Virus record (IMG/VR): IMGVR_UViG_3300026257_000002
Coordinates: 68,523 to 132,522 of that record
Length of the DNA: 64,000 nucleotides
Reading direction: 5' to 3' (one strand)
From: a virus
The notes below the pieces were generated by a model, which ran no database searches, was not told the origin of the DNA, and saw only the letters and a list, made by a program, of their open reading frames with translations. Position 1 is the stretch's first letter; each line of letters begins with the position of its first letter. Of the stretch, positions 1 to 53,903 are shown in pieces. A program made the translations under genes and the position numbers.

Positions 1-186
1 TCCCAAAATAGAAACTTTAAGTGCTTCATATACATGGACAGCTTCGTGAAATTTTACTTCACCATCTTTCCATTCTGCAGTATCATCTGCTTTTTCGTCC
101 CATTCCCAGTCAGTAATTTCTTCTAATTTTTGTTTTAAATCCGAGAGGGTATAAGAACCATCCCCTGATATTGTAAAATGTGTCAT
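1..186 (-). CDS. Hypothetical acidic protein, runs off the window edge
   Basis: Manual translation from ATG at 186: MTHFTISGDGSYTLSDLKQKLEEITDWEWDEKADD..., open to position 1; starts 20 nt after the stop of the 1881-aa gene. Confidence 0.65.
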   Translation of the reverse strand, partial: MTHFTISGDGSYTLSDLKQKLEEITDWEWDEKADDTAEWKDGEVKFHEAVHVYEALKVSILG

Positions 187-205
187 TTGATAGTAACTCC
201 TAAAA

Positions 206-3200
206 TTATGCTTGTGATTCTTTCCAGGTAACCCTAGAAGAAACTGAATATGGATTTGAGATGCTTACATCAGTAGAGTCAACAATATTTGCGACGACTG
301 TCAAGATGTCTGGACCGTTCGGGAATACTCCGTCACCACCCAATATTGCATTACCCAAGTCAGAAATCTCTGTTAGGTCATATTCAGTTCCCTGAGATTG
401 ACCGTTACCACTACCAGATGCTCTGAATGACAGAATAGTTGAACCACCAGCAACAACTTCATCAGATTCATGTTTGAGAAGTTGGCAGAGGGAAGGTTCT
501 TGAACATTTTGATAAGCATCACTGCTTAATTGTGCATTAAGGAGCAAACTAATTTCAGTTTCGTGTGTGGTAAGAATACCAACTGAATCAAGAGCTAATT
601 GCATTCTGTTAATAATTTCTCTTTCTCCCAGAGCACCTGTGATCGAAGAATCGACTGAAGGAGCAAGTCTAATTGAAATTAATGGGATATCCATAGGAAT
701 GACGTTATCAGTTCCAGATGGAGCACCAACACTAAATGTTTCTCCACTATTTACAGCTGGATTTCCTAGAGTAGAGTAGATTTGATTATAATAACCTCTT
801 GGGAAATATTCGATGACCCCTTCTGTATATAAGATGTAAACGTAATGTGTACTTCCAGAGGTTCTTGTTCGAGGATGAGTTCGCTTACCATCTAGGAAAT
901 ATCCATTTGCTACAGTAGTATTGTAAATAAGACTATTTGAAGGCAAATCATTGGCATAAGTACCAGCATCGAATGGGATACGGATATAGTATCTTCTAGT
1001 ATACCAGTTTATATATTCTTCAATAATGGCAGAGTTACCATTACTAGTTACATTAACAGAAGTAGCGTTTGTATACTTCTGGACGTTACCGGATGCTGTG
1101 AATAAGTATGCTTCGTCATCTTGATACATACCATCCATAATAACTGAAGTACCCCAATGGAACAGAGTTCCTGTGTAAGTGGGAGCATTACCATTTTCAA
1201 TTTCGTAACGAGCAGGTAGGTTACCTGAACGGAAGTAAGATTCAGTATCGATGTTGTTGTGCTTGAACTCATGCATATACTTGACGTGACCATTCTGATC
1301 CTTAAATCCGAAGCGGATCTTACCAGCACCATACCAGGAGTAATCCATGTAGCACATCTGGATCTTAGAAATATCTAAGGTATATCCAGAAGGACCATCA
1401 CCATCTGCCTTATCAATGTTCCAGTTGTTTTGAGCTACGCGAGTATCAACTGTTTTAGTACAAATGACATTTGAAGCAGTGACACCCCTATATGCAGGTT
1501 GAACAGTCAATTGACTGTTGCTAGTTACCTTAACAACTCTGTATGACATGCCCCTAATCACAATATGATCTTTGATACTTAGTTCAGAAGTAAATTTGGT
1601 ATCAGTGCCAGTAACAATATTACTTCCTTTATTAACTGAAACTCTTCCAGGAATTTGAAGAACTGAACTTCTTCTAACACAATTCAATGTAGACCCATTA
1701 AATTCATAGAAGAAACCATTTTGATTATCAAACATACCTGCGCGAACATCACATTCAGACCAGGCAAGAACTTGTACTTTAGGGAAACCACCAGAAGAAC
1801 TATTGGTAGGTTCATTATCTAGAAGATACTTAAAGTTAAAATCATCAATAATATCACAGGCATATGAAGTATGATTAAAATGTGTTTCATCAGAATCAAC
1901 AATTTTAACTGCGATATTTGTAGTTAAATTATGTGGTTTGGATGTTCTAATAACACCTTTGTGAATTTGGTTGAAAGTGACAACTTCGGAAGAAAGAGCA
2001 CCAGTCAATGGTTTATCTATTGTAAATGTAGTTGCATTATCTACACTAATAACTCTAGTGCCAGCGGCAATACCATTACCACTAATAGGCATTAAAGCGA
2101 GAATACCTGAAGTGTCGCTTACAGTTAGGGTTGTTTCACCTAGAGTGCCTGTAGCATTTTTTGTGGTCAAAGTTCCTTCAGTTGCATATGTAAGATCAAG
2201 AATCGGAATTAATGGGATGAAATTCATTGCATATGAAGTTTGGATACCTTTACCAGACTGATAGCGGAAATACTTACGTGTCTGTCTAGAAATTCTAGCG
2301 TTAGGTGACTTAGCAGTACCAATTTCCATACCACCATCGAACGGTCTATGGAGATAGAAACCATCAGGTCTTACATAAATGTAAGAAGGAATTAGATAAA
2401 CAGCTGAACTGTCAGTGAAATTAAAGTTTGAATCTACTAAAAGATTATCATCGTCAGTAATAGCAGTAATTGTTTTTTCGATTAATGTACCAGGAGAACT
2501 GGTAGCATCAACAACTTTAATTTTATCACCAACCTTGAAGAATCTTTGGAATGCAGCATTACTTCCAACAATTTTTCTTGATGCACTATTAACTTCGATT
2601 GTACCAGGACCGGATACTTCACCAGAAATATTACTGCTATAGAATTGTTGAGTTCCGCTTCCTGCAGACAATGTAATTCCATTATCAGATTGAGCATCAC
2701 TCTCGCTAGCACAAACTCTGAAATTATTATTATCCATAATAGAAATCCAATAATCAGCACCGTCAGTTAGACCACCAATAACAGAACCTCCAGCAGCATC
2801 ATAAATTACTCTTGTTCCAGTTCCAAAATAGTGATTGTTAATTGTTATATGTGTTGAAGAAACATTCGCCGAAGCATCAAAACCTTTTGTTGATGGAGGA
2901 ACTTTAAATGGAACTGTAACTTCCAATTCAGTATCACTAATGGCTTTGGTTGTCGTATAAGAACCATCAACTACACCAAAGTCAGCAGTTGTATTTTCAA
3001 AAGATTGAATTCCCGCACCCACTCCTGATAATGTAATCATACTACCACCTGCTGATGAGGCGAGAGTAAATCTATTACCATTAATATTGGTAAGAAAATA
3101 TGAAGATCCATTACTAAGACCAGTTATTTCAGTTCCAGTTGTCTCATACTTTAAGACTTCTCCACTAGTGAATTGATTATCTGCAATATAAATTGAGTTT

Positions 3201-18800: not shown

Positions 18801-19162
18801 AAAAATCCATCACTTGCAGCTGATGATGAACGAGTATCCACTATGGTGTCTAAAGTGCCATCGGAAGACTCGAAATAAACCCAACACTCTAATGTAAAAT
18901 CACCTGTATCAAAGGCAATATCGCTATTACTGTTAGTGTTATTTATGTGATCATTAACGCCATCAAAACTGGAAGAACCCCCAAATGGAAGTTCATAACC
19001 AGCTGTGAAACTAGAACCAACTTTAGTAATAGGATATAAAGTTGGACCTCTATCATTAAAATCCTCTCCTGTAGCATAGAATACTGCTGAAGCTGGAAGT
19101 CCTTCAGCAGTAGTGACACTACCCTCGCCTGCACCATAACCAAAAAACATGATTTGCATCAT
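15830..19162 (-). CDS. Receptor-binding/adhesin protein: three LamG (ConA-like) domains, a Gly-rich domain and a C-terminal discoidin-like domain
   Basis: FDG..D...GDFT(L/I)E.W/Y...W.HVAVVRS...Y.DG...F.G.I..FR..KG.A.YTS.F motifs three times; polyglycine segment; C-terminal ARYWRVRF. Confidence 0.8.
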   Translation of the reverse strand: MMQIMFFGYGAGEGSVTTAEGLPASAVFYATGEDFNDRGPTLYPITKVGSSFTAGYELPFGGSSSFDGVNDHINNTNSNSDIAFDTGDFTLECWVYFESSDGTLDTIVDTRSSSAASDGFLIGRFHTAGHENKIELYTDGNYRTTADVTVSDDTWTHVAVVRSSSVTTVYVDGTAYSSTYSDSNDYSNEDYILGENVDANYQFHGQICDFRMVKGTAVYTSNFAPPLALLTEIPNAKVLLCRSNISPLANVVTPGGITASGAVASWNNPFSSNFGALADDSFNFEGSDTEQYFHAGTNTFLDDSLSSWQFQCWAFYENDSGQAGNTSSDMGILVDQYESGASGRLLFGFQEDLLVMRVNGGTVELTSGTLNKQVWYHVMLNWDGTTHRLFVNGSLVDSTTTSPSIYTGKRTEFGGGGDLSDYNLHGYMKHVLVEQGGTVETSNFTPTWTFGAVAPAIDYGGSVEFDGNGGAVKIPTHSDLNLGTGDFTIEYFYKMEDSGENYYTMFTVGQGDVFDSMEMYWNSTDDTIRITKDHTERGQTGAIGSDRYDTWHHIMVTRSSGTTYTFFNGNLEDTYTTSWDAEEDDDWIIGDRIPNATHANYEFKGLISNFRVIKGTALHTSSFTVPTEPLENVTNTVLLCCQSETSVTDAAVSPTTLVAVSGATASSDHPFGGSGGGGGSDVFEMMFTEPGTYNFVPPSGVTSVNVVAVGGGGGCAHYPNSVTGTTGGGGGSLSYKNNISVTPGTTYTVTVGARGTGASTVTGFSYPEGYQTSVSSSAGAGGTSQFALGGTTYCMAMGGAGASGSTAGVGGNSTSNIGDGGGSGGDGGDNDGTTSYWAFGGGAGGYSGDGGHGGRWEAGGVYTNGATAGAGGGAGGGAGWANVNGVGVFGEGTSGGIGDPGSGGTDNIFGRNGGTQYGKYGGGGSGHGAGDPASSNIGQSGAVRIVWYSGSSFPSTSVDAPAGLTDEQLRTKGTAIGNMTQDGGLSAAFDGTTTGDYTVSARLDPSNNATIGKDFGENVSIKQVILYRPDGDGTTNSNCFPGSGNNNVTPMYLEHSHDGTTWQEAMSSDNTSNKDVTMGIGVSIVARYWRVRFTGDNNGGSVRECVFKSS

Positions 19163-19163
19163 A

Positions 19164-21170
19164 TTAGCTTACCCCCGTACCAGAAATATATGCTACAGCA
19201 TTAGTAATATACAATATCGTTGCTATTCCATATCCCGCTAATGTCTTATCTCCAGTAGATCCATTAGTAAATTTAAGTGTTATTCCAGTACCTTCAGTAA
19301 GTGTACAACTAGAACTGTGATCATTTACCACTGTAATCATAGATCCAGCAGATAATCCAGCTGCTCCTCCTTCAAATGTTACCGAACCACCGCCAACAGT
19401 GACAATTGCTTCTCCAGAACTATAGTTAGTAGTATTAACTATTTCAGCACCAGTTGTGTTATTGATTTTGACTGTTCTAATATCTACACTTAACTTGTCA
19501 CTAATAGTTCCGTCAATACCGATTGATGCTTTTGTAACAGTATTGAATGAAAAATCAATAGGGTGATCGCTGCTACTGTGGATTTCTAAACTAGAAGTTT
19601 TTGCGGTAAGAACAAGGAGACCATTAGTATTTGTCTTATCACCAATACTTAAAGTAGTATCGCCACTAGGGTTATCAATTTCTATACTACCAGTATCAGC
19701 ATATAATTTTAGTGGAGAAGCAGTAAAAGCAGCACTTGAATCTAATTCAATGTGTCCTGCACTCTGAATATTTGTTTGGATGATACCGTTGCTATCAAGT
19801 TGAAAAGCACCACCAGCAATTGTCAAACCAATATTAGTTTCCCAACATCCACTAGCATTATCATAAGTAATAAGCTTATCAGTAGTTCCTTTCAGTGTAA
19901 TACCACCACCATCAGCCAAAAGATCAGTAGGTGATCCACTAGTGCCAAGTTCAATATTTTTATCTTCTACTGTTAAAGTAGTTGTATCAATGGTAGTAGT
20001 AGATCCAGAAATATCAAGGTTACCTACAACATAAAGATCCTTATAAACAATAACTCTTTCAGATGCATCAGTCGTCTGAAGTTGAATGTAAGTATTAGTA
20101 CCCTCTTTAATAGCAAGAGCATTTGTTGCATTATCTGTAATAGTAACTTCTGTTTCTGAATCTTCAAGATTTACATTCTCATTAACTTTTAATGAATTAT
20201 TAATTACTGTTTCACCATTTCCATTAGCAGCACCAATTCTTATATCATCATTAGCAATTAGTAAATCAAAAGTATTTTGTGATGAAAGAATTTCACCACC
20301 ATTAACGTTTAAGTCACCATCTAGAACTGTATCATCAGATCTAATATTAAAGTTACTGTTTATTCCAGTGTTTCCAAACGTACTAAGACCAGTAACCACA
20401 GTAGAGGCAGCACCAAAAGCATTGACTGTTGCTGCTATCGTATTAAAAACATTGATAGAAGTTCTCGATGTTGTAATATTATTATTTCTGATAGCAAGAG
20501 TGCCAACAACATCAGCACCTATTGTAATATCAGTTGCGTCCATAAGGACTTGGGCAGTATCAATATAATTATTGAAAATAGTTGCTGTTGTTGCAGTACT
20601 AGCATCAACCTTAATAATACCTGAATTTACTGCAAGTTCTCCAGTAAGTGTAGTGTCCAAATCTACTTCTAGTGTATCAATAGAAGCAATTCCATCAATC
20701 CATAAGTTATTCCATTGCTTAGCGAGAGTACCTAAATTATAGTTAGCAGTTGAATCAGGAACAATACTTGATTGAACATCTGCATTGAGTATAATATTAT
20801 CAGTATCAAGATCACCAAATGTTAATGTGCCACCAGTTCCAGAACCTGCTCTAAATGTAATATCTCCATCTACTTCTAAGTTACCAGTAACAGCAAGACT
20901 GGTAGTTAACCCTAATTTATTAGCATCTACTTTATAAAATCCTTGACCTGTATCCCAGAATAAACTTGGTGATGCTAATGTGCCATCATCCATCCCAATA
21001 GTTTGATTTGATAAATCAACATCACCATTAATGATCTCATTGATTGCAGTGACTACAACATTTGTCGGAGTTAGTAATAAACTTGCATCTCCCACATCAG
21101 TGCCGATGAGATTAAGCATCTGGCGCTGTTGCTCGAATGTAAAACTAACTAATACTTCTCTAATTGCCAT
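19164..21170 (-). CDS. Tail fibre / fibritin-like protein (668 aa)
   Basis: N-terminus MAIREVLVSFTFEQQRQ, beta-repeat shaft (LTVEDKNIELG...ADGGGITLKG), C-terminal GSMITVVN...AYISGTGVS domain. Confidence 0.7.
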   Translation of the reverse strand: MAIREVLVSFTFEQQRQMLNLIGTDVGDASLLLTPTNVVVTAINEIINGDVDLSNQTIGMDDGTLASPSLFWDTGQGFYKVDANKLGLTTSLAVTGNLEVDGDITFRAGSGTGGTLTFGDLDTDNIILNADVQSSIVPDSTANYNLGTLAKQWNNLWIDGIASIDTLEVDLDTTLTGELAVNSGIIKVDASTATTATIFNNYIDTAQVLMDATDITIGADVVGTLAIRNNNITTSRTSINVFNTIAATVNAFGAASTVVTGLSTFGNTGINSNFNIRSDDTVLDGDLNVNGGEILSSQNTFDLLIANDDIRIGAANGNGETVINNSLKVNENVNLEDSETEVTITDNATNALAIKEGTNTYIQLQTTDASERVIVYKDLYVVGNLDISGSTTTIDTTTLTVEDKNIELGTSGSPTDLLADGGGITLKGTTDKLITYDNASGCWETNIGLTIAGGAFQLDSNGIIQTNIQSAGHIELDSSAAFTASPLKLYADTGSIEIDNPSGDTTLSIGDKTNTNGLLVLTAKTSSLEIHSSSDHPIDFSFNTVTKASIGIDGTISDKLSVDIRTVKINNTTGAEIVNTTNYSSGEAIVTVGGGSVTFEGGAAGLSAGSMITVVNDHSSSCTLTEGTGITLKFTNGSTGDKTLAGYGIATILYITNAVAYISGTGVS

Positions 21171-43929: not shown

Positions 43930-45780
43930 TTATGCTGCTTCTTGGAATACCTGGAGAATGCTATCTTCTATTGAGAGATTTAAATATACTTCTCTCACTG
44001 CACTCACATCATCATTAAGGGGGATGGCACTGATAAAAATTTCACTGTCTTCATTACTGCCGCTAATGAATTGAATTGGATTTAAATTCACCTTACCATT
44101 AGTAAAATCAACGGATCCTACATTTTCAATTAGAATTTTTTTAGATGCAGTAGCAGAATCAATAGTATATATTCTAATTGCACCATCATCAGTATTTTCC
44201 ATATACGCATCATCGTTAGGATAATTTACCGTCCTAAATTTAGAACTTGTTATAGTAGTTTTTCCATCACATGATGTTTGGAACGGATTTACATAGCATA
44301 GTAAATATTGAGCTGTAGTATTAAGTGCTGGTGTTAATTTTTTGCGTAATACGAAGTCGCTAACATTACCTGTAATTGAACTTTCCGAGGCATCAACAAC
44401 TGTAGTTATTTTACTTTTTCTAATCACCCCACCAAACTTACTGATACTATTAGTATCTCTATATTGAGTTAAATTTTCAATTACAACATTTCTTATTTGC
44501 TCGGATGTTAAATTAGTATCAGTTTGCCTATAATAAATTTTAGAATTTAAAATTACGTCAACAAGTGATGGATCGACAATAATTGGAGTAACAGAAGCAA
44601 CTGTATACTTCTTAAGTTTACTGATAATATCTCTTTTAGTGGAATTACTTAAAATATCACTATATTTTGGTTTAATAGCAATTTTCACACGTCCATACTC
44701 AGGTGGTTCTTCAGTTTCACCACCATATACAATAATATCAGCAATTGATGAGTAAAGTCTTTGAGTAATTACCTTATAATCTTCTAATGTTACTGCTCTA
44801 TTTTGTGAAGAATAGAATGCGGGGGCATTTTTTCTGATTACTTCAGCATCTTCAATATCATCACCACCTTCAGAACCAACTACAACTGTTGTAGTGATCC
44901 CAGTTAAAATTCGGTTTAATTCTTCATCATAAATTTGACCAGAGAAAACAAAATTCTTCAATTTGTTTGCTGATTTACCTGAAGATGCAATATATGAAAC
45001 TTCAATAACTTGTCCATCAGTAACTTTTTTACCCAATACACCATCACCAAAAATTAATTCATATCTGGAATCATCAGTCTCTTGAACAAAAAATACTTTA
45101 TCAACTGCAGTTACATCAAGAATATTCTCAACTTTTGTAAAAATTTCAGTTTTAGATGCTGCAGCATTTTCTCTTACTACTACTTTAATAGTTTCAATAT
45201 CTATATTTTCAGTAGGAATGATAAATTTTTGATTAGCAATTGTATTATCTACAGTATAAGTAGAATTTAAATAAATTCCTTCAATTACCTGCAACTGATC
45301 TGATGAAACATTTGAAATATATCCAATATTATTTGTTACTGGAGATACAACATCTTCTAAAATAGAAAATTGATAGGTTTCGTTTCTATTTTCTGGATTT
45401 GATGAAACAAAGCAATTTCCTTTCTTGAGGGTAAGAAATGATGGCACTAATCTTTGATCGATAGCAGCAACACTACTAAAATCAACCTTTAACTTAAGGA
45501 ATGCCTTTGCTGAAGTTGTTGACTTTGGATTATATCCAAGTTGTTTAGCAACTTTTACGATATTATCTCTCAAAGAAGCAGACGCCAAAAAACTCTCATT
45601 AACTGCCATCGTAGTGTTGAAGGCAGTATAATAAGTGTTATATGCTAAGAGGTCAACAATAGAAGATAGTGTTGACCCTTCAAAGTCATAATCTGTGAAA
45701 TCAGTATTTCTCCTTAGATAATCAACTAAGGTAGATTTGATATCAGCGTAATCTAGAGAACTAACTTGTGCGAATGTCAT
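43930..45780 (-). CDS. gp6: Baseplate wedge subunit gp6
   Basis: LDYADIK..L..YL....FTDYDFEGS.LS..VDLLAYNT, YELIFGDG..G, QNRAVT.EDY motifs. Confidence 0.92.
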   Translation of the reverse strand: MTFAQVSSLDYADIKSTLVDYLRRNTDFTDYDFEGSTLSSIVDLLAYNTYYTAFNTTMAVNESFLASASLRDNIVKVAKQLGYNPKSTTSAKAFLKLKVDFSSVAAIDQRLVPSFLTLKKGNCFVSSNPENRNETYQFSILEDVVSPVTNNIGYISNVSSDQLQVIEGIYLNSTYTVDNTIANQKFIIPTENIDIETIKVVVRENAAASKTEIFTKVENILDVTAVDKVFFVQETDDSRYELIFGDGVLGKKVTDGQVIEVSYIASSGKSANKLKNFVFSGQIYDEELNRILTGITTTVVVGSEGGDDIEDAEVIRKNAPAFYSSQNRAVTLEDYKVITQRLYSSIADIIVYGGETEEPPEYGRVKIAIKPKYSDILSNSTKRDIISKLKKYTVASVTPIIVDPSLVDVILNSKIYYRQTDTNLTSEQIRNVVIENLTQYRDTNSISKFGGVIRKSKITTVVDASESSITGNVSDFVLRKKLTPALNTTAQYLLCYVNPFQTSCDGKTTITSSKFRTVNYPNDDAYMENTDDGAIRIYTIDSATASKKILIENVGSVDFTNGKVNLNPIQFISGSNEDSEIFISAIPLNDDVSAVREVYLNLSIEDSILQVFQEAA

Positions 45781-46185
45781 TTATATCTTTGATGATGACG
45801 TTAATGTTAACGAAGTGGTGAAAATTTGAGCACCTGTATCAGGAATACTATAAATTACTTGAATGTCATACTCAAATTGATCTTCATTCAAATCCAAAAC
45901 TACCTCAATCAAGTTAATTCTTGGTTCATATAAAGTAATTAAGGTTTCTACCTCAGTTTTAATAGATCCAGCAGTAGCATAATCAAAAGGTTCAAATAAT
46001 AAGTCAGGAATTCCACTACCAAAATTAGCATTAAAAAACTTTTCACCTTTCTTATAAGAAAAAAGATTAAGTAGTGACCTCTTAATCGCATTTTCATCCT
46101 TCAGAAGGTTTAAATCCTTCCGTAAAGGATTGGTTTTAAATGTGAAACTCAAGTCTTTGTAAGATCTTGATGCTTTTAATGCCAT
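45781..46185 (-). CDS. gp25: Baseplate wedge subunit gp25
   Basis: YKDLS..F..NP...DL..LKDENAIKRS..NL.....GE.FF...FGS...LFEP...YEPR. Confidence 0.9.
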   Translation of the reverse strand: MALKASRSYKDLSFTFKTNPLRKDLNLLKDENAIKRSLLNLFSYKKGEKFFNANFGSGIPDLLFEPFDYATAGSIKTEVETLITLYEPRINLIEVVLDLNEDQFEYDIQVIYSIPDTGAQIFTTSLTLTSSSKI

Positions 46186-46613: not shown

Positions 46614-49600
46614 TTATACAGCAGTCACACTGATAATTTGAATTTGAACTCCACCACTTTCATTACCAGCAGAAGGATTACTAACAATAACTTCTGCTGG
46701 ACTATAAGAATTAATAGAAGGTTTTGGAAGACCTCCATAATAGGAAGATCCACCTCCACCGCCACCACCAAATTCACCTCCAGCATTATATTCTAAGTCC
46801 CAACCGCCACCGCCACCGCCGCCACCGTAGTAACCCATACCGCCTTTGCCGCCACTACCATCAACGCCGTTGCCGCCATGACCTCTACTTAAGAAACCAC
46901 CGTTGCCTCCCCAAGATCCAGTATATCCATCACTAGCACCAGGATATCCGCCACCACCTCCAGATCCAGATCTATATCCACTAGTGGTTCCACCGCCACC
47001 GCCACCAGAAGCATTGAGATTACTTCCAGCATTTCCAGATGGATATCCAGCATTACCACCAGCACCAACCCCACCATATACACCATTTCCCTGGGCACCA
47101 CCCTGAGCACCAAGCATTATACACTTATTTCCAATATTATTAGTTCCAAAGAAAACTGCAGCATAATCCGAATCGTAATAAAGTCTGTAAATATTTCCAC
47201 TCGTCATGCGAATTGTTCCCTGAACATATGCACCTGTTCCAGATGGACTTCCACCACGACATTTTACAACTACATCGTAGTCACCATCTAATGGTGATAA
47301 AAGAACATTTTCAGTAAGAGTTAGAGTAGAAGATAAAGTACTGATATCACTTGTAGTAGAACTAGTAAGACCGGTCATGACTAATTGATCTTCTAAGAGG
47401 AACTTGATTACAGCAAGACCATTTTCACCTGAACCACCATGACCCGTAACATAATCTGGATCAGTTGAATATGGAGCAGGTGTATAGGGGTGAGATCCCT
47501 TAGAACCATCACTAGTATTGTAATTAGTAACATTTGCCACAATATATCCTGATCCACCACCACCTCCTCCAGACTGTCCTGTGGTGCCATTACCGCCGCC
47601 GCCACCGCCGCCGCCCCAGTATCCTGATCCACCGCCGCCTCCACGGTTACCAGTGTTGTAGGGGAAACCGCCCCCTGCTCCACCACCATTACGACCAGAG
47701 GTTGGAACACCATTACCTTGTCCAGGCCCTCCAAGTGTTCCACCACCGCCAGGAGAAAATGTACCATCACCAGCACCACCAACTCTACTAGCACCACCAC
47801 CAAATCCACCATTACCTGCTTGACCTGTTCCGCCGCCTCCACCAACGTAAACAACGTTGTTACCAAATATCATTTCCGATCTTTGACCACCACGACCAGC
47901 ACCATATCCAGACATACCTGAAGGAGAACCCAAACCAGTAGCACCAACAAATACAGTAATAGCATTCGTATTTGAATCAGGAATACTTATAGTTCCCATT
48001 GCGAATCCACCAGATCCACCTCTAACAGGGAAACCTTCTCCAACACCAGAACCACCAGCACCCCATATTTTAAATGTAAACTCAGAAGCAGAAGATGGTA
48101 TAGGTATATTTGTCGAACCGGGATTAGTAATTACAAAATCAGTTTCTAACGGTGCTGCTACAAGAGTAATAACTTCTTCGCTATTTTTGTCTGCACAGTA
48201 TTGGTTACTAAGAACACAACGATAAAATTCATTAGTATTTGCAATAGTCAATGTGGGTGTGGTGTAAGTGGCAGAAATAGCGCCAGCAATATCAGTCCAA
48301 ATACCAGATATCTTTTTCTGCCACTGAAAAGTTACTGGATCACCATCACCATTCACTACTAATGCTGATACACTAAATGTAATTGTATCACCATCATTAA
48401 CTAAAGAAGATTCTGGATTTGATGTTATTTCAATATATGTTGGATTAATAACAACTCTTGAATTTTGACTTTCTTCTCCTGCAGTTCCTCTATTCAAATG
48501 AGTTTCATTAGCAAATGATCCTGTAGTTCCATTTACAGTGCTAGCAACATACCCAGAACCACCACCGCCTGCTGAAGATCCACTACTTCCTGATGCAGCA
48601 CCACCACCACCCCAGTATCCACCACCACCTCCAGCACCAGAAGTACCACCAGAAGTAGTTACAGTGACGGTAGTTTGATCTGTAGTTAGTGTAGATGGAT
48701 ATGATCTTCCCTTACCCCAAATAAGTCTTACAGCACCATTACCACCATATCCACCAGGTTTATCAGTAGAACCAACTCCAGCACCACCGCCATAGATACC
48801 TCCATTTCCACCACCATCACTTCCACCAGAACCACCACCAGATCCACCAGATCCACCAGAACCACCGTTGAGGTTCAGTCCACCAGCAGCTCCATCAGCA
48901 CCTTTTCCATAGATACCAACTCCACCTCCTCCAGCAGCGGGAAAAGATATGCCGCCGCCACCGCTGCCGCCACCTCCAGATCCAGCAGTTGGGTAATTGC
49001 TGAAGGTTGAATATCCACCTTGACCACCATCACCAGTATATCCACCAGCTCCACCGCCTCCCCAGACACCTATTCCTTGACCACCGTTTCCACCACCATC
49101 ACCAACAAACCCACCAGCACCACCAAGACCATAACCACCACCACCTTTTACAGTGCTGGTATCGATGAAATAAGAGTCTCCTCCTCCATAGCCTGCAGCA
49201 CCAACTACTATAGTATAAGTTTGTCCAGGAACTACCATAATATCATTCTTCCATCCAAGTCCTCCACCACCACCTGGAGTTATGCTGTTAGTAGTATTTC
49301 CCCAACCATGGCCACCGCCACCAATACAAACAGCAGAAACTCTATAAACACTGTTGGGACACGTCCAATAATGTGTTCCTGGTGAAAGGAAATTAGACTG
49401 ACCTACTGCATTAACAAATCCACCACCATCACCACCAATTAGTGCAGTACCATCTTGACCATGTTCACCCATTATTTCATACTCAATTGTAATATAAGGA
49501 GTGTTGGAAGTTGATGTTTCTAAATCAGAAGTAGCATGATATTCCTGATTATAATATCCGCCACCGCCGCCACCGCCAGCACCAGATTGGTGATTACCAG

Positions 49601-52457
49601 ATTGATTCCATCCTCCACCATATCCACCAAAAGCTCCGCCACCGCCACCACCTGTACCACCATTAGCAGATGTACCATTACCACCACTCCATCCCTGCGT
49701 GGAACCTACAGAGATGGAAGTTACAATTATATTTGAAGTAGTGCCGGGTGTTGCAGTATAAAATGTGTTTGCAGCAGCACCGCCGCCTCCACCGCCTCCA
49801 CCAGCGACTGCTAAAACTGTAGACCCCATACGAATAACTGTAGCAGATCCACCACCGCCTGCTGATGCATCAGTTCCCCAAGTTTCTTGGCCACCAGAAG
49901 TAGATCCACCAGGACCACCACTGTAATATCCATATCCTCCATAACCACCAGTATCGTTTCCCTGGCTTCCAGTACCATTACCACCATTACCACCAACTTC
50001 AAGTGTTAAAGTTTGGCCACTAACGTTAGTAAGCACACCAGATATTTTCTGACCTTGACCACCCGTTCCACCATTCTGACTGGAGAAACCAGAGCCTCCC
50101 TGCATTACTGAAGAATTACCACCATTACCACCCTTAGCACCATGAATAGTATATTTAACCGTAGAAATTCCAGCTGGGATTTCTACCGTATTTGTACTGT
50201 TATATGTTTGATTAAATGTTGTCGCTGCAGCAGCTCCTGAAGCAACACCACCAGCGCCACCCGCACTTTGAGTACCACCATCACCACCAGTGATAGACGC
50301 ATCAAGATCATTTCCATCACCGGCTATTAATCCTCCACCAGCACCACCAGCAATATTGCATCCATAACCAGCAGATGGAGCTTGATCCACAGTAAGTGTT
50401 GACGGGAAAGATCTCCCAGGGCCCCAAATAATTCTTACGGCACCCTTTCCAGGAACTCCTCCATATCCACCTGCCGCCCATCCTCCACCTTCATTAGTTC
50501 CACCAGATCCGCCACCATAAGCACCACCATCACCACCCTCATGCCATCCTGATTGATCTCCATCTTCACCACCAGATCCACCATATCCACCATCTCCACC
50601 TGAACCAGTAGATGGAGCACCAGAACCATTATTACCCTGGCCATAAACGCCTACGCCGCCTCCACCGCCACCTTTACGTTTACCGGCATTTGTACCTGTG
50701 TTTGAGTGCCCTGCACCGCCGCCACCTCCACCTCCAGATCCAGCAGATCCAAAAAGTGTGGAAGCATTGCCACCATTGCCGCTATATCCACCAGCACCGC
50801 CGCCTCCGCCGCCCCAATTCGTCGCACTGCTTCCAGTACCACCACTACCGCCGCCGTTGCCAACATAACTTCCACCAGTCGCTCCATTCCAACCATTTAC
50901 ACCACCACCACCTTTTACAGTGCTGGTATTGATGAAATAAGAGTCTCCTCCATTCGCACCACCTGCTTGTCCTGGAGAACCTACGACAACCAAATATGTT
51001 TGTCCTGGTATTACTGAAATATTATTTTTCCAACCAAGACCGCCGCCGCCACCTCCGGCACCGCCGCCACGACCACCAGCACCAACACAAACAACACAAC
51101 ATGAAATTACACCAGCAGGTACTGTCCAACTATGATATCCAGGAGTATCATATAACTCTTGTCCTTCTGAACTACCAAAAGCTCCACCAGTACCACCACC
51201 AGCACCACCTGCAATAGCAAGAGCCTTTGATTGAGATAAGATATTACCTTCAAATATACCAGCATATCCACCGCCTGCTTCAGCAGAACTTCCACTAGTG
51301 GAAGATGTGGTAAAACCTTTACCACCATTCAATACCACAAAAACACTTTCAGTTGGTAAAATAGGAACACCTGCTTTTGTGTAACCACCCTTACTAGCAC
51401 ATGCTCCTTGCCCCCATAGGTCAGAAAGAAATCTAGTTCTTCTGCTGTCTAATGAAGTAACTGTGTATGAATTACTGGATGCCGGATCTAGAATTAATGC
51501 TCCATCTCGCTCAAGACTCCAAAATTCTGTAGTCTTAGCAATACCATCAATAGTAACTTGATAAATGGGGGGAACTACTCTAAAATCAGCACCATCAACA
51601 ATCAATGTAACAATAGATGAGGTTATAGTGTTTGCAAGAGGATTAGTTAAGACACATCTATACTGATCACCATTATCCTCATATGTATCCAATACTGACG
51701 TAGTAAAAGTTGCAGTATATCTAGCATCTACACCGGTTCCCGAAACATATACCATGACACCATTTGCATCAACAATATCCTCCCAACTATTAGTATTATT
51801 TTCTTTTATTTGCCACTGATAATTAATTACATCACTACTAATTGCTGCAACAAGATCTAAAGTAATTGTATTACCAGCAACAGCAGGAGATGTTAATGCA
51901 GGTTGTGTTGTAATAGCAATTGCTCTACGAACCTCAATTAAAAATTCACCAGTATATTGAGGAGCGTTTACTACAGTTGCACCATGAGTAATTTCACAAC
52001 GATATGAATCACCATCATCATTCGCAACACTCATCCCTGCTGGAATTGAATATGTTGTAGAGTTTGCACCAGCAATATCAACCCAACTATTAGTTCCTGA
52101 ATCTTTGAGCTGCCATTGATATTGCAATAATAAAGGATCTGCTATATTAGTGCCAGCAGTTATTGTTAGAACATAGTCAAGTATTGTTGGTTCCTCTAAT
52201 TGAATGATAGTATTTTCAGTTGGAGTAACATTATTAATGACTGGTACTAAATCTTCAAGACTAGTGGATCCACCTCCATCACCTCCACTAGGAGGATTTT
52301 CAGGATCAGAAATATTAACAGTTGATGGTCCACTACCTGATTGCATCAATGCGATATCAGTTTCAGTTACTACATACCAATCAGCAGGAGATACCTGACG
52401 TTCTTTGCCGTCTTTCGGGATATATTGAACATGATTGCTAAATGGTTGTATTCTCAT
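46614..52457 (-). CDS. Ig-domain / polyglycine adhesin-like protein (1947 aa)
   Basis: Three Ig-like domains (YQWQ/FQWQ...YRC) and multiple GGGGG-rich domains; translationally coupled to PAAR. Confidence 0.8.
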   Translation of the reverse strand: MRIQPFSNHVQYIPKDGKERQVSPADWYVVTETDIALMQSGSGPSTVNISDPENPPSGGDGGGSTSLEDLVPVINNVTPTENTIIQLEEPTILDYVLTITAGTNIADPLLLQYQWQLKDSGTNSWVDIAGANSTTYSIPAGMSVANDDGDSYRCEITHGATVVNAPQYTGEFLIEVRRAIAITTQPALTSPAVAGNTITLDLVAAISSDVINYQWQIKENNTNSWEDIVDANGVMVYVSGTGVDARYTATFTTSVLDTYEDNGDQYRCVLTNPLANTITSSIVTLIVDGADFRVVPPIYQVTIDGIAKTTEFWSLERDGALILDPASSNSYTVTSLDSRRTRFLSDLWGQGACASKGGYTKAGVPILPTESVFVVLNGGKGFTTSSTSGSSAEAGGGYAGIFEGNILSQSKALAIAGGAGGGTGGAFGSSEGQELYDTPGYHSWTVPAGVISCCVVCVGAGGRGGGAGGGGGGLGWKNNISVIPGQTYLVVVGSPGQAGGANGGDSYFINTSTVKGGGGVNGWNGATGGSYVGNGGGSGGTGSSATNWGGGGGGAGGYSGNGGNASTLFGSAGSGGGGGGGAGHSNTGTNAGKRKGGGGGGVGVYGQGNNGSGAPSTGSGGDGGYGGSGGEDGDQSGWHEGGDGGAYGGGSGGTNEGGGWAAGGYGGVPGKGAVRIIWGPGRSFPSTLTVDQAPSAGYGCNIAGGAGGGLIAGDGNDLDASITGGDGGTQSAGGAGGVASGAAAATTFNQTYNSTNTVEIPAGISTVKYTIHGAKGGNGGNSSVMQGGSGFSSQNGGTGGQGQKISGVLTNVSGQTLTLEVGGNGGNGTGSQGNDTGGYGGYGYYSGGPGGSTSGGQETWGTDASAGGGGSATVIRMGSTVLAVAGGGGGGGGAAANTFYTATPGTTSNIIVTSISVGSTQGWSGGNGTSANGGTGGGGGGAFGGYGGGWNQSGNHQSGAGGGGGGGYYNQEYHATSDLETSTSNTPYITIEYEIMGEHGQDGTALIGGDGGGFVNAVGQSNFLSPGTHYWTCPNSVYRVSAVCIGGGGHGWGNTTNSITPGGGGGLGWKNDIMVVPGQTYTIVVGAAGYGGGDSYFIDTSTVKGGGGYGLGGAGGFVGDGGGNGGQGIGVWGGGGAGGYTGDGGQGGYSTFSNYPTAGSGGGGSGGGGISFPAAGGGGVGIYGKGADGAAGGLNLNGGSGGSGGSGGGSGGSDGGGNGGIYGGGAGVGSTDKPGGYGGNGAVRLIWGKGRSYPSTLTTDQTTVTVTTSGGTSGAGGGGGYWGGGGAASGSSGSSAGGGGSGYVASTVNGTTGSFANETHLNRGTAGEESQNSRVVINPTYIEITSNPESSLVNDGDTITFSVSALVVNGDGDPVTFQWQKKISGIWTDIAGAISATYTTPTLTIANTNEFYRCVLSNQYCADKNSEEVITLVAAPLETDFVITNPGSTNIPIPSSASEFTFKIWGAGGSGVGEGFPVRGGSGGFAMGTISIPDSNTNAITVFVGATGLGSPSGMSGYGAGRGGQRSEMIFGNNVVYVGGGGGTGQAGNGGFGGGASRVGGAGDGTFSPGGGGTLGGPGQGNGVPTSGRNGGGAGGGFPYNTGNRGGGGGSGYWGGGGGGGGNGTTGQSGGGGGGSGYIVANVTNYNTSDGSKGSHPYTPAPYSTDPDYVTGHGGSGENGLAVIKFLLEDQLVMTGLTSSTTSDISTLSSTLTLTENVLLSPLDGDYDVVVKCRGGSPSGTGAYVQGTIRMTSGNIYRLYYDSDYAAVFFGTNNIGNKCIMLGAQGGAQGNGVYGGVGAGGNAGYPSGNAGSNLNASGGGGGGTTSGYRSGSGGGGGYPGASDGYTGSWGGNGGFLSRGHGGNGVDGSGGKGGMGYYGGGGGGGGWDLEYNAGGEFGGGGGGGSSYYGGLPKPSINSYSPAEVIVSNPSAGNESGGVQIQIISVTAV

Positions 52458-52765
52458 GCCAAGTAAACCGTTTTTGCTCCATGGAGTAAAGGAAACGATC
52501 CAGTAATACCTAATGCTAGATCACCAATTCTTAATGCTGCCTTACCTTGAACGAATACTTTAGGTGATCCTACAATAACCCTTGCTATATGTGTTTTACA
52601 GCATTTGGGACATGGAACTATTTCTTGATAAGGTATAGTCTTATCACCTATAGTAGCATTTGCCATCTGCATTGAAAAGACCGTAGGAGCTCCTTCACCC
52701 TGTATTGGTGTGTTGCAACGATTAATATATACTTTTCCTATCGTACCTGCAGATCTTAATGCCAT
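52454..52765 (-). CDS. PAAR-family spike-tip protein
   Basis: GSPKVFVQGKAALRIGD, CPKCCKTH putative metal ligands, GAKTVY ending. Confidence 0.85.
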   Translation of the reverse strand: MALRSAGTIGKVYINRCNTPIQGEGAPTVFSMQMANATIGDKTIPYQEIVPCPKCCKTHIARVIVGSPKVFVQGKAALRIGDLALGITGSFPLLHGAKTVYLA

Positions 52766-52772
52766 TATATTC

Positions 52773-53903
52773 CTATGGTAATGTATCTACTTTAATCTTA
52801 TATTGCGTAAAATTACTTGTTTCAATTTGTTGATTATATAGGTTTTGTTCTGGTGTTAATTCTTTATCTTCTACTTTCACTACAGTAGGTGATGTGACTT
52901 CAATATCAGTTGTGGGGAATGTTTGACCAAGACGTTCATTTTGTTCATCCTGTGATCTTTGTCTTTCATTTAGAATTTCTTCTAAGATCTTAGGCCAATC
53001 ACCAGTATTATTATTAATTACCTGAGTAATTGTATGAACATCAGTTCCAGTCTGAGTAGCACTACTATATCCCATTCTTTCTAAAATCTTGTCCTGATTA
53101 TCTGAATTAATAAATCCTGCCCATATTCCAAAACTTATATGAAGTTGCCAATCTACTTCAATCTGAAATGTAAGTGTGGTATCTTCTCGCTGATCAGGAA
53201 TAAATTTATATAAATTATCGAACTTATCTGGTAATTCGTAAAGACTGTTTACTTCAAACGTTTGAGATGTGTAATCTTTATTTCCATAAGTATTGGGATC
53301 TTCATCAAGATATCCGAATTCATTATAGCAAAACACACCACCATTATAAGAACCTTGAATACTTAATGTGTTCCAATCAGGTACAGTAAATGTAGCTGCA
53401 TCTGTTACTCCATCTGCATCTACACTAGTAATAAACGAAAAAGCAATATTACCTGCAGGTGTTGGATTTTGCACAAAAGCAACCCCACTACCTCTTCCAT
53501 CTGCTTTAGAAAGCACGTCACGATTAAACCAATCACCTCTCTCATTCTGTGCAATACCATCACCATTAGGACCACCAGTATCCACCCACCTCATCTCGGT
53601 AGGAATACGAGCAACATGGATACCCACATATGCGCCGGAAGGTCTAGAACTGCTAGAACCATACCTATAACCTCTAGTATTATAGTTTGAACGGTTATTA
53701 TACTTGATACCATTTCTTCCTGCTCCAGTCGTTTGTGTTGGGGGTGCTGCAACTTCTGCAGATGTTGACTTAACTTCAAAATTAAAACTATTATATAAAT
53801 CTACATCAGGTAATATCGGTGATTCTGCACCACTTAGATAATCGTAATTATCTGTAGATCCAGGAAGACCATTATATTTACTATAAACTATGGTGTATGA
53901 CAT
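52773..53903 (-). CDS. Hypothetical structural protein (376 aa)
   Basis: Long ORF directly upstream of PAAR; no family recognised with confidence. Confidence 0.7.
   Translation of the reverse strand: MSYTIVYSKYNGLPGSTDNYDYLSGAESPILPDVDLYNSFNFEVKSTSAEVAAPPTQTTGAGRNGIKYNNRSNYNTRGYRYGSSSSRPSGAYVGIHVARIPTEMRWVDTGGPNGDGIAQNERGDWFNRDVLSKADGRGSGVAFVQNPTPAGNIAFSFITSVDADGVTDAATFTVPDWNTLSIQGSYNGGVFCYNEFGYLDEDPNTYGNKDYTSQTFEVNSLYELPDKFDNLYKFIPDQREDTTLTFQIEVDWQLHISFGIWAGFINSDNQDKILERMGYSSATQTGTDVHTITQVINNNTGDWPKILEEILNERQRSQDEQNERLGQTFPTTDIEVTSPTVVKVEDKELTPEQNLYNQQIETSNFTQYKIKVDTLP

What the first reader, a model, noticed from the sequence alone, without database searches (positions are those of the whole stretch)
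48440..51590. Three Gly-rich domains inserted into one host Gly-rich domain of the PAAR-linked protein
Seen in sequence: a host domain starts after the second Ig (…LWGQGA..KGGYTKA…GGGYAGIF…ALAIAGGAGGG) and is interrupted three times by complete Gly-rich domains at about 51170-50380, 50240-49470 and 49410-48660. It resumes each time (CNIAGGAGGG…GGTQSAGGAGG; GQDGTALIGGDGGG; GAGGGGGYWGGGG…HLNRGTAG…RVVI). Inserts 1 and 3 are paralogues sharing about 50 nt of near-identical DNA (GGDSYFI(N/D)TSTVKGGGG, near 50905 and 49138). Established: polyglycine-II sandwiches are the receptor-binding parts of T-even gp38 adhesins. Inference: a trident of alternative adhesin heads, and a second independent case of nested architecture in this genome.
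Basis: partly seen in the sequence, partly recalled or inferred. Interest (0 to 1): 0.7.

Follow-up and report, generated by a model that had tools for sequence, protein, structure and literature searches.

The report
Three domains nested inside one phage domain
A 1947-residue baseplate-region protein of an uncultured marine T4-like phage has one glycine-rich domain split by three complete glycine-rich domains. Relatives use the same split points for other inserts, so it probably serves as a swappable display scaffold for host-binding heads.

Summary
The gene at 46614-52457 (-) encodes 1947 aa. Residues 296-1340 are one ALK/LTK-type "TNF-like + glycine-rich" domain, cut at three points by complete glycine-rich domains (425-697, 739-997, 1015-1270).

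- **Excision test.** Removing the three inserts in silico leaves 257 aa. These align end to end (174.7 bits, E~1e-55) to a profile of 26 uninterrupted relatives. The inserts themselves do not match that profile.
- **Census.** Of 139 distinct host-type domains, 74 are uninterrupted and 65 carry inserts at the same points. Their cargo is either glycine-rich or not. Some relatives show two-level nesting.
- **Structure.** An uninterrupted relative folds as one compact domain (pLDDT 86.9, pTM 0.84; Z 14.5 to the LTK TG domain). Insert 2 is a complete copy of the same fold (Z 13.4 to ALK; 10.7 to the cyanophage Pam3 fibre tip). The model of this protein's own nested segment is only partly confident.
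- **Origin of inserts 1 and 3.** They are 59% identical and share a 50/51-nt patch. Each has closer kin elsewhere (78% and 73%), so they were acquired separately.
- **Context.** The gene lies in a conserved gp5/PAAR-X-gp25/gp6 slot and changes much faster than its neighbours.

An adhesin role is a reasonable inference but is untested. The same-direction "trident" geometry is also untested.

The parts
46614..52457 (-). Whole gene, 1947 aa (P0001). Its ATG overlaps the stop of the upstream PAAR gene by 4 nt (ATGA).
52454..52765 (-). PAAR-motif protein (103 aa), immediately upstream. A gp5-like gene lies at 52773-53903.
   Evidence: (PF05488, 32.5 bits)
52233..52457 (-). N-terminal module, residues 1-75. 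It is conserved among orthologues and is a presumed virion-attachment part (inference).
   Evidence: collinear 1-415 matches at about 40% identity
51588..52232 (-). Two Ig-like domains, about residues 76-290.
   Evidence: ig hit at 212-279; phrog_613 at 175-285
51186..51572 (-). Host domain, N piece (residues 296-424): the beta-sandwich strands and the first Gly run.
   Evidence: 104.6 bits alone, hmm 6-125; pLDDT about 80-88
50367..51185 (-). Insert 1 (residues 425-697): a complete type-A (PF21722-like) Gly-rich domain at site 1.
   Evidence: PF21722 positions 3-224 of 226, weak score; 74.5% identical over 255 aa to the free C-terminal domain of P0010; 77% to the site-3 insert of P0002
50244..50366 (-). 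Host domain, middle piece M1 (residues 698-738).
   Evidence: hmm 126-181
49467..50243 (-). Insert 2 (residues 739-997): a complete type-B Gly-rich domain at site 2.
   Evidence: model 455-707 against ALK 7mzy_A: Z 13.4, rmsd 3.6, 179 aa; Pam3 7ypx_A: Z 10.7; Bxb1 9d93_Qb: Z 10.9; type-B profile 1-261, 292 bits; phrog_29022
49416..49466 (-). Host domain, middle piece M2 (residues 998-1014).
   Evidence: adds 14.6 bits and joins the alignment into one hit; weak motif score of 4.3
48648..49415 (-). Insert 3 (residues 1015-1270): a complete type-A Gly-rich domain at site 3.
   Evidence: PF21722 positions 3-223 of 226, E 0.048
48438..48647 (-). Host domain, C piece (residues 1271-1340): the last Gly runs and the two closing strands.
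   Evidence: 50.7 bits, hmm 204-277; PF12810 positions 171-210, E 0.011; strands at model 1020-1024 and 1045-1049, pLDDT 71-86
48153..48437 (-). Third Ig-like domain (about residues 1341-1435).
   Evidence: Ig_3, 1343-1418
46617..48152 (-). Two further Gly-rich domains in tandem, not nested (residues 1436-1690 and 1691-1947).
   Evidence: PF21722 at 1445-1654
49134..49184 (-). 51-nt patch in insert 3 that matches 50901-50951 in insert 1 at 50/51 nt. Probably a short gene-conversion tract.
   Evidence: (D16)
50901..50951 (-). Partner copy of the 51-nt patch, in insert 1.
   Evidence: (D16)

Best explanation
This gene encodes a large multi-domain protein of the baseplate gene module (inferred to be in the virion) of an uncultured T4-like marine phage. 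After an N-terminal anchor and two Ig-like spacers comes one domain of the ALK/LTK 'TG' type. This fold is a TNF-like beta-sandwich whose long glycine-rich loops pack into a polyglycine-II lattice.

Three turns between glycine runs in that domain each carry a whole extra domain of the same general fold: type A at sites 1 and 3, and type B at site 2. One chain therefore builds a compact cluster of four Gly-lattice domains. A third Ig domain and two more Gly-rich domains follow in tandem.

**Shown**
- The parent domain is split but complete.
- The inserts are complete domains.
- The same split points are used across the family with different cargo.

**Inferred**
- The host domain acts as a display scaffold.
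- The displayed domains are host-surface binding heads, as in the receptor-binding Gly-rich tips of Pam3 gp24 and S16 gp38.
- Cargo is swapped between phages by recombination, which changes adsorption specificity.

**My odds**
- Nested architecture: about 0.9.
- Scaffold with exchangeable cargo: about 0.8.
- Adhesin or host-range role: about 0.55.
For: **Architecture**
- The excised host is 257 aa and makes one end-to-end hit: 174.7 bits, E about 1e-55, hmm 6-277 of 278. Controls score lower.
- In the intact protein the pieces hit successive profile parts: 6-..., 126-181 and 164-277.
- Uninterrupted homologues carry the same four pieces contiguously. Examples are P0023 1137-1415, P0034 855-1142, and the stand-alone P0141, P0142 and P0148.
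- In a census of 139 distinct units, 74 are uninterrupted and 65 are interrupted. Cargo occurs at sites 1, 2 and 3 and is either Gly-rich or not. This protein is the only one with all three sites holding Gly-rich domains.
- Further sites and second-level nesting occur in relatives.

**Fold**
- P0141 models at pLDDT 86.9 and pTM 0.84. It matches LTK TG 7nx1 at Z 14.5, rmsd 3.0, over 179 aa spanning model 43-303.
- In this protein's own model, the host strands appear in the same order as in P0141. The last two strands lie about 890 residues downstream of the rest and are confident.
- Weak beta-sandwich matches span model 1..1053.
- Insert 2 is a full TG fold.

**Role**
- Synteny gp5-like / PAAR / this gene / gp25 / gp6 holds in the loci that extend far enough (28 of 37; the shorter loci keep the downstream gp25/gp6).
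- The nearest relatives keep gp25 at 92% and gp6 at about 90% identity, but the N-terminus of this protein is only 61% identical and the insert set differs.
- Structural neighbours in phages are the Pam3 fibre receptor-binding tip and a Bxb1 tail-tip protein (PMC9608196; PMC13243192).
- PF21722 domains co-occur with lectin-type domains in relatives and in another ORF of this window.
Against: - The AF2 model of residues 290-1345 is weak overall (pLDDT 57.7, pTM 0.39). The host's own Gly pieces M1 and M2, and the Gly parts of inserts 1 and 3, fall below pLDDT 50. Co-folding of the Gly lattice in this protein is therefore inferred from homology and was not seen directly.
- No coordinates or PAE were available, so the relative orientation of the heads is unknown.
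- Pfam scores for all the domains here are below the curated cut-offs.
- No cultured phage in the collection has this protein, so there is no proteomic or genetic evidence that it is in the virion or binds anything.
- The homologue sample was seeded from this protein and is not an unbiased census.
Confidence: 0.6

Rival explanations
1. The nesting is real, but the protein is not a receptor-binding adhesin. It could be a structural or decorative baseplate or tail-tip component, such as a bulky shield, a spacer or a weak general 'sticky' coat like Ig-domain decoration proteins. Insert turnover would then reflect tolerance of the scaffold rather than selection for host range.
For: - There is no direct binding or virion evidence.
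- Ig-like domains, here matched by Hoc-like PHROGs, are common in non-essential decoration proteins.
- A shared fold does not prove function, as the tool's own note says.
- In cultured Synechococcus phages the PAAR-gp25 slot holds unrelated small genes, so this protein is not part of the core baseplate.
Against: - In phages with solved structures this fold sits at host-contact tips (PMC9608196; PMC13243192).
- The gene changes far faster than gp25 and gp6 beside it, which is the usual signature of host-range determinants.
- Relatives combine the domain with lectin-type modules.
Confidence: 0.28
2. There is no nesting. The region is a linear string of independent, partly degenerate Gly-rich domains, and the apparent 'host pieces' are just linkers and fragments.
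For: - Low-complexity Gly runs make alignments unreliable.
- The model of the whole segment has low confidence in the Gly parts.
- The M2 motif score in this protein is weak (4.3).
Against: - The four pieces, and only in the right order, rebuild a full-length match to the uninterrupted profile.
- 74 uninterrupted domains have the pieces contiguous.
- Relatives with 0, 1, 2 or 3 inserts keep the pieces collinear.
- The closing strands of the fold are predicted confidently about 890 residues after the opening strands.
Confidence: 0.05
3. The architecture is an assembly artefact, such as a chimeric or collapsed metagenomic assembly across repetitive Gly-codon DNA.
For: The DNA is repetitive. The genome is a metagenome-derived contig of 132.5 kb.
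Against: - The exact protein sequence is on record from several sources and on 3 contigs.
- The reading frame stays open for 5.8 kb.
- The inserts are only 59-64% identical to each other, so there are no long exact repeats to mislead an assembler.
- Orthologues from many independent samples show the same kind of architecture.
Confidence: 0.03

Closest known systems
ALK/LTK TG supradomain (TNF-like + glycine-rich, PF12810; PDB 7nx1, 7mzy, 7lrz)
   Same: - The fold is the same: a beta-sandwich whose Gly-rich loops form a polyglycine-II lattice.
- The uninterrupted relative P0141 matches at Z 14.5 over 179 aa, and insert 2 at Z 13.4.
- Remote relatives of the host type carry PF12810.
   Different: - The known examples are animal receptor ectodomains that bind a cytokine.
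- No whole-domain insertions in the Gly lattice are described in what I could read.
- This protein's own Pfam scores are below cut-off.
Cyanophage Pam3 tail fibre gp24 (PDB 7ypx/7yfw; PMC9608196)
   Same: - It is a TNF-like plus Gly-rich domain in a cyanophage host-recognition organelle.
- Its authors propose that the variable distal tips of the Gly loops bind the receptor.
- It matches at Z 10.7 (insert 2) and Z 8.7 (P0141).
   Different: - Pam3 gp24 is a small trimeric fibre with an N-terminal helical shaft, one Gly-rich domain and short tip loops.
- Here there is no helical shaft, there are six Gly-rich domains in one chain, and three of them replace loop turns of a fourth.
S16 / T-even gp38 adhesin (polyglycine-II sandwich, PDB 6F45)
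   Same: A Gly-rich PPII lattice whose connecting loops carry specificity.
   Different: - gp38 has a different non-Gly part and a three-layer sandwich.
- It did not appear in my structure-match lists.
- Its variable segments are short loops, not domains.
'Evolved' Dit and Tal proteins of siphophages, with carbohydrate-binding modules inserted in loops (PMC10688798, PMC7533335)
   Same: They work the same way. A conserved phage tail-tip scaffold domain carries whole binding modules inserted into its loops, and these are present or absent between related phages.
   Different: - The scaffold fold and the phage type are unrelated.
- Inserts there are CBMs, not copies of the scaffold's own fold class.
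- There is no recursion.
Self-nested beta-barrel domains in gp7 of this same genome
   Same: It is domain-in-loop nesting in a giant baseplate-module protein of the same phage.
   Different: The domain family and the gene are different. I did not re-test that note.

Membership tests
Nested (domain-insertion) architecture | The parent pieces are contiguous and in the same order in homologues that lack the inserts. | tested here: met
   26 aligned uninterrupted domains. 74 of 139 units are uninterrupted. The excised host makes one end-to-end hit of 174.7 bits.
Nested (domain-insertion) architecture | Each insert is a complete domain that also exists on its own. | tested here: met
   Insert 1 is 74.5% identical over 255 aa to the free C-terminal domain of P0010. 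In the type-A tree, free and nested copies are interleaved. Insert 2 covers the whole ALK TG fold. Inserts 1 and 3 cover PF21722 positions 3-224.
Nested (domain-insertion) architecture | The parent pieces fold together in this protein. | tested here: inconclusive
   The model has pLDDT 57.7. The host strands are confident and in the same order as in P0141, but the host Gly pieces are below 50. No coordinates or PAE were available.
ALK/LTK TG-type domain (PF12810), for the host domain | A TNF-like sandwich plus Gly lattice as one fold. | tested here: met
   This was shown on the uninterrupted homologue P0141: Z 14.5, rmsd 3.0, 179 aa against 7nx1. It is transferred to this protein through the end-to-end profile match.
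ALK/LTK TG-type domain (PF12810), for the host domain | A Pfam PF12810 score above the gathering cut-off. | tested here: not met
   Only the host C piece matches, at 16.2 bits against a cut-off of 24.5. Of 43 relatives of P0141, 11 match PF12810 at E<=0.01, the best at 8.1e-20.
Gly_rich_2 (PF21722), for inserts 1 and 3 and the first tandem domain | A Pfam score above the gathering cut-off (24.3 bits). | tested here: not met
   The scores are 6.8, 14.1 and 9.0 bits for the single domains and 20.6 bits for the whole protein. Coverage of the model is nevertheless full-length, and close homologues pass the cut-off (P0011 at 58.9 bits, P0010 at 33.3 bits).
Pam3 gp24-type tail fibre | A TNF-like plus Gly-rich distal domain. 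| tested here: met
   Z 10.7 over 146 aa for insert 2, and Z 8.7 over 142 aa for P0141.
Pam3 gp24-type tail fibre | An N-terminal helical shaft that trimerises and docks to the baseplate. | tested here: not met
   The modelled segment has no long helices. The N-terminus of the protein is followed by Ig-like domains. The oligomeric state cannot be tested here.
T-even gp38 adhesin | A gp38-type PGII sandwich that attaches to the gp37 tip. | tested here: inconclusive
   6F45 is not among the listed matches, which does not exclude it. I did not look for a gp37 partner.
Phage receptor-binding protein (functional class) | Located in the virion and binds a host surface receptor. | not testable with these tools
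   There is only indirect support, from gene neighbourhood and fast divergence and from fold neighbours.

The most novel reading that the evidence does not exclude
The polyglycine-II lattice of this TG-fold domain may be a general display scaffold that can be used recursively. At least five turn or loop positions accept whole domains, either Gly-rich or unrelated, and inserts can themselves carry inserts. Marine phages would shuffle this cargo among themselves by recombination in Gly-codon runs. That would give a natural, combinatorial 'domain-in-loop' library that sets host range. In this phage it would present four binding heads as one rigid cluster next to the tail spike.
Probability: 0.35. 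Interest if true: 0.8.

Novelty: new variant of a known kind. Interest (0 to 1): 0.62.

Why it matters
Glycine-rich polyglycine-II lattices are rare folds. They are known from ALK/LTK receptors, a few phage adhesins and an antifreeze protein, and they are usually regarded as delicate, tightly packed structures. This family suggests the lattice tolerates whole 100-500-residue domains spliced into its turns, at several positions and recursively, and that phages exploit this property.

If the heads do bind host surfaces, this would be a new way for marine phages to build and re-equip multivalent adhesins from one chain. It would also give a concrete set of variable modules to test for host range in uncultured picocyanobacterial or other marine phages. 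For protein engineers, it points to a natural scaffold with mapped permissive insertion sites.

Tried and rejected
- **Megablast of the gene against cultured phages:** no match.
- **tblastn of the nested segment against phages:** almost nothing, because the low-complexity filter removes Gly runs.
- **tblastn of the N-terminal 424 aa against phages:** only Ig-domain matches in P-HM1, P-HM2, MED4-213 and S-BM3. No cultured orthologue was found.
- **phmmer of single domains against PDB sequences:** no hits.
- **BLAST with composition correction between the domains:** nearly blind.
- **BLAST-based detection of host C pieces:** gave false hits inside inserted domains, so I replaced it with a profile and anchor motifs.
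- **hmmalign for mapping insert positions:** it pushed all inserts into two cheap insert states, and I discarded it.
- **Anchor parse:** it still lumps sites 0, 1 and 1b together and mis-split P0004.
- **ESM Atlas look-up of the non-Gly cargo of P0057:** scores below 0.8, uninformative.
- **The look-up of encoding contigs:** I took genomic context from IMG/VR loci instead.
- **ALK structure paper PMC9343967:** not held, so I could not map the three sites onto named ALK helices.
- **Geometry from helix counting:** I tried to infer whether the three sites lie at the same end of the lattice by counting Gly runs between them. I rejected this because tight two-helix hairpins make the count ambiguous.
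Full report
**The gene and its setting**

Window 46614-52457 (-) is one open frame of 1947 aa, P0001. Its ATG overlaps the stop codon of a 103-aa PAAR-motif gene by ATGA. A gp5-like gene lies upstream, and gp25 and gp6 baseplate-wedge genes lie directly downstream.

The same order (gp5-like, PAAR, giant protein, gp25, gp6) is kept in the IMG/VR loci that encode a relative and extend far enough (28 of 37; the shorter loci keep the downstream genes). In a cultured Synechococcus phage the PAAR-gp25 slot holds small unrelated genes instead. No cultured phage in the collection has an orthologue.

The genome is a 132.5-kb metagenome-derived contig. The exact protein is on record from several sources.

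**Checking the observation**

With residue i at nt 52457-3(i-1), the layout is:

| Part | Residues |
|---|---|
| N-terminal module | 1-75 |
| Two Ig-like domains | to about 290 |
| Host piece N | 296-424 |
| Insert 1 | 425-697 |
| Host piece M1 | 698-738 |
| Insert 2 | 739-997 |
| Host piece M2 | 998-1014 |
| Insert 3 | 1015-1270 |
| Host piece C | 1271-1340 |
| Ig-like domain | about 1341-1435 |
| Two tandem Gly-rich domains | 1436-1690, 1691-1947 |

This rests. The 51-nt patch (49134-49184 against 50901-50951) is 50/51 identical. Inserts 1 and 3 overall are 59% identical in protein and 64% in DNA. The patch is 3.7 sd above the mean for 51-nt windows, and all its synonymous sites are identical. 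I read it as a short conversion tract.

**Is the host domain really one domain?**

Homologues answer this. A search with the nested segment found several hundred relatives. The orthologues are collinear over residues 1-415 but differ in what follows. Reading them shows:
- Proteins with the four host pieces directly adjacent: P0023 1137-1415, P0034 855-1142, and the stand-alone P0141, P0142 and P0148.
- Proteins with one or two interruptions at the same places.

I aligned 26 uninterrupted domains and built a profile of 278 positions. In the intact protein, the pieces hit successive parts of the profile. Joined in silico, the pieces give 257 aa and a single alignment over positions 6-277, at 174.7 bits and E about 1e-55. 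The control scores were:

| Construct | Bits |
|---|---|
| N + M1 + M2 + C (natural order) | 174.7 |
| N + M1 + C | 160.1 |
| N + M2 + M1 + C (middle pieces swapped) | 147.1 |
| N + C | 143.9 |
| N alone | 104.6 |
| Inserts and the two tandem domains | 4 or less |

The host is therefore a distinct subfamily, and its pieces are complete only when taken together. The N piece defines a small family: 35 representative clusters at E<=0.001 among 1.84 billion proteins.

**Census**

I used anchor motifs for the end of N, M1b, M2 and the start of C. Of 139 distinct host-type units, 74 are uninterrupted and 65 are interrupted. The patterns found were:
- Non-Gly cargo of about 170 aa at site 1 (26 units, including the nearest relatives of this phage).
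- Gly-rich at site 2 plus a 110-aa non-Gly domain at site 3 (9 units).
- Non-Gly cargo of about 100-130 aa at site 2 (9 units).
- Gly-rich at sites 2 and 3 (8 units).
- Gly-rich at site 2 only (6 units).
- Gly-rich at site 3 only (1 unit).
- This protein, the only unit with Gly-rich domains at all three sites.

Reading individual cases shows further sites. One lies in the beta-sandwich part and one lies between the two halves of M1 (P0009, P0007). There is also second-level nesting: in P0007, P0033 and P0024 the type-B insert at site 2 is itself split at profile position 119/123 by a second complete type-B domain.

The sample is seeded from this protein, so these counts describe diversity and not frequency.

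**Fold**

The uninterrupted P0141, with 43 aligned relatives, is predicted confidently as one compact domain: pLDDT 86.9, pTM 0.84, Gly region included. It matches the whole TG supradomain of LTK and ALK (7nx1: Z 14.5, rmsd 3.0, 179 aa, model range 43-303). The next matches are the Pam3 fibre and a Bxb1 tail-tip chain.

The model of this protein's residues 290-1345 is weaker (pLDDT 57.7, pTM 0.39):
- The beta parts of the host, of insert 2 and of the start of insert 3 are good.
- The Gly parts of the host and of inserts 1 and 3 are poor.
- Insert 1 had no aligned homologues at its position.

Even so, the host strands appear in the same order as in P0141. The last two strands are confident although they lie about 890 residues after the others. 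A few weak beta-sandwich matches span model 1..1053. Insert 2 (model 455-707) matches the full ALK TG fold (Z 13.4, 179 aa), the Bxb1 chain (Z 10.9) and Pam3 gp24 (Z 10.7).

Pfam sees the inserts as full-length but sub-threshold PF21722, and the host C piece as sub-threshold PF12810. Remote relatives of the host type carry PF12810.

**Origin of the inserts**

In a FastTree of 97 type-A domains, insert 1 groups with the site-3 inserts of P0002 and P0003 (78% identity), a free C-terminal domain of P0010, and a copy at another site in P0009. Insert 3 groups with another protein's copy (P0035, 73%) and with other site-3 inserts.

Free and nested copies are interleaved, and the tree needs at least 7 changes between those two states. 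Inserts 1 and 3 were therefore acquired separately, and the shared 51-nt patch is secondary. This is a quick tree with local support values only.

**How it probably works**

Shown:
- One parent domain carries three complete domains.
- The insertion points are used repeatedly across the family.
- The cargo is exchangeable.

Inferred:
- The parent is a display scaffold.
- The displayed domains are host-binding heads.

The inference rests on three observations:
- In phages with solved structures this fold sits at host-contact tips. In Pam3 gp24 the variable distal ends of the Gly loops are proposed as the receptor site, and gp24 resembles S16 gp38 and ALK (PMC9608196). Bxb1 gp33 and gp29 carry PPII bundles (PMC13243192).
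- The gene diverges much faster than its neighbours. gp25 is 92% and gp6 about 90% identical in the nearest relatives, against 61% for the N-terminus of this protein, and the insert set differs.
- PF21722 domains travel with lectin-type modules in relatives and in another ORF of this window.

The closest functional analogue is the insertion of carbohydrate-binding modules into 'evolved' Dit and Tal proteins (PMC10688798, PMC7533335).

I could not test whether the three heads point the same way or whether any of them binds a host.

**Verdict**

- The nesting is supported.
- The gp38 link is only an analogy. The fold is the ALK/LTK TG type, as in Pam3 gp24.
- The adhesin 'trident' is plausible but untested.
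- I rate this a new variant of a known kind. The fold and the idea of domain insertion in phage adhesion devices are both known. Whole-domain, multi-site and recursive insertion into a polyglycine-II lattice did not turn up in my five full-text searches, none of which was aimed at that question, so this is a weak check.

I did not re-test it.

Noticed in passing
window 15833-19168 (-): A second large ORF (1112 aa stop to stop) carries Laminin_G_3 (3 matched stretches), a full-length PF21722 Gly-rich domain (aa 690-950) and a C-terminal F5/8 type C (discoidin) domain. Here the Gly-rich domain sits beside lectin-type modules, in a beads-on-a-string arrangement.
   Followed up: partly
homologues P0007, P0033, P0024 (site-2 inserts, about aa 438-947); fragment P0123: Second-level nesting. 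A type-B Gly-rich domain inserted in the host is itself split at profile position 119/123 by another complete type-B domain.
   Followed up: yes
homologue P0009 and loci L006, L007, L013: This is another orthologue with three inserts, at different places. A type-A domain sits inside the beta-sandwich part of the host. A 110-aa non-Gly domain lies between the two halves of M1. A type-B domain occupies site 2.
   Followed up: partly
L039 (Synechococcus phage Sf-CH1b, PV340850.1 62814-68225): In this cultured cyanomyovirus, the slot between PAAR and gp25 holds small genes (SET-domain methyltransferase, PurM, endonuclease V) instead of a giant protein. The slot looks like a flexible island.
   Followed up: no
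window 43930-46185 against loci L002-L012: gp25 (92%) and gp6 (about 90%) are nearly identical to the nearest IMG/VR relatives. The giant protein between PAAR and gp25 has a different insert set there, with a single 170-aa non-Gly domain at site 1. This is a sharp local break in conservation.
   Followed up: partly
non-Gly cargo domains in P0057 (aa 412-592), P0011 (aa about 707-825), P0134 (aa about 190-330): Three unrelated Cys/Tyr/Thr-rich cargo domain types have no Pfam match. For the one looked up in the Atlas (P0057), the result was uninformative. Their folds are unknown.
   Followed up: partly
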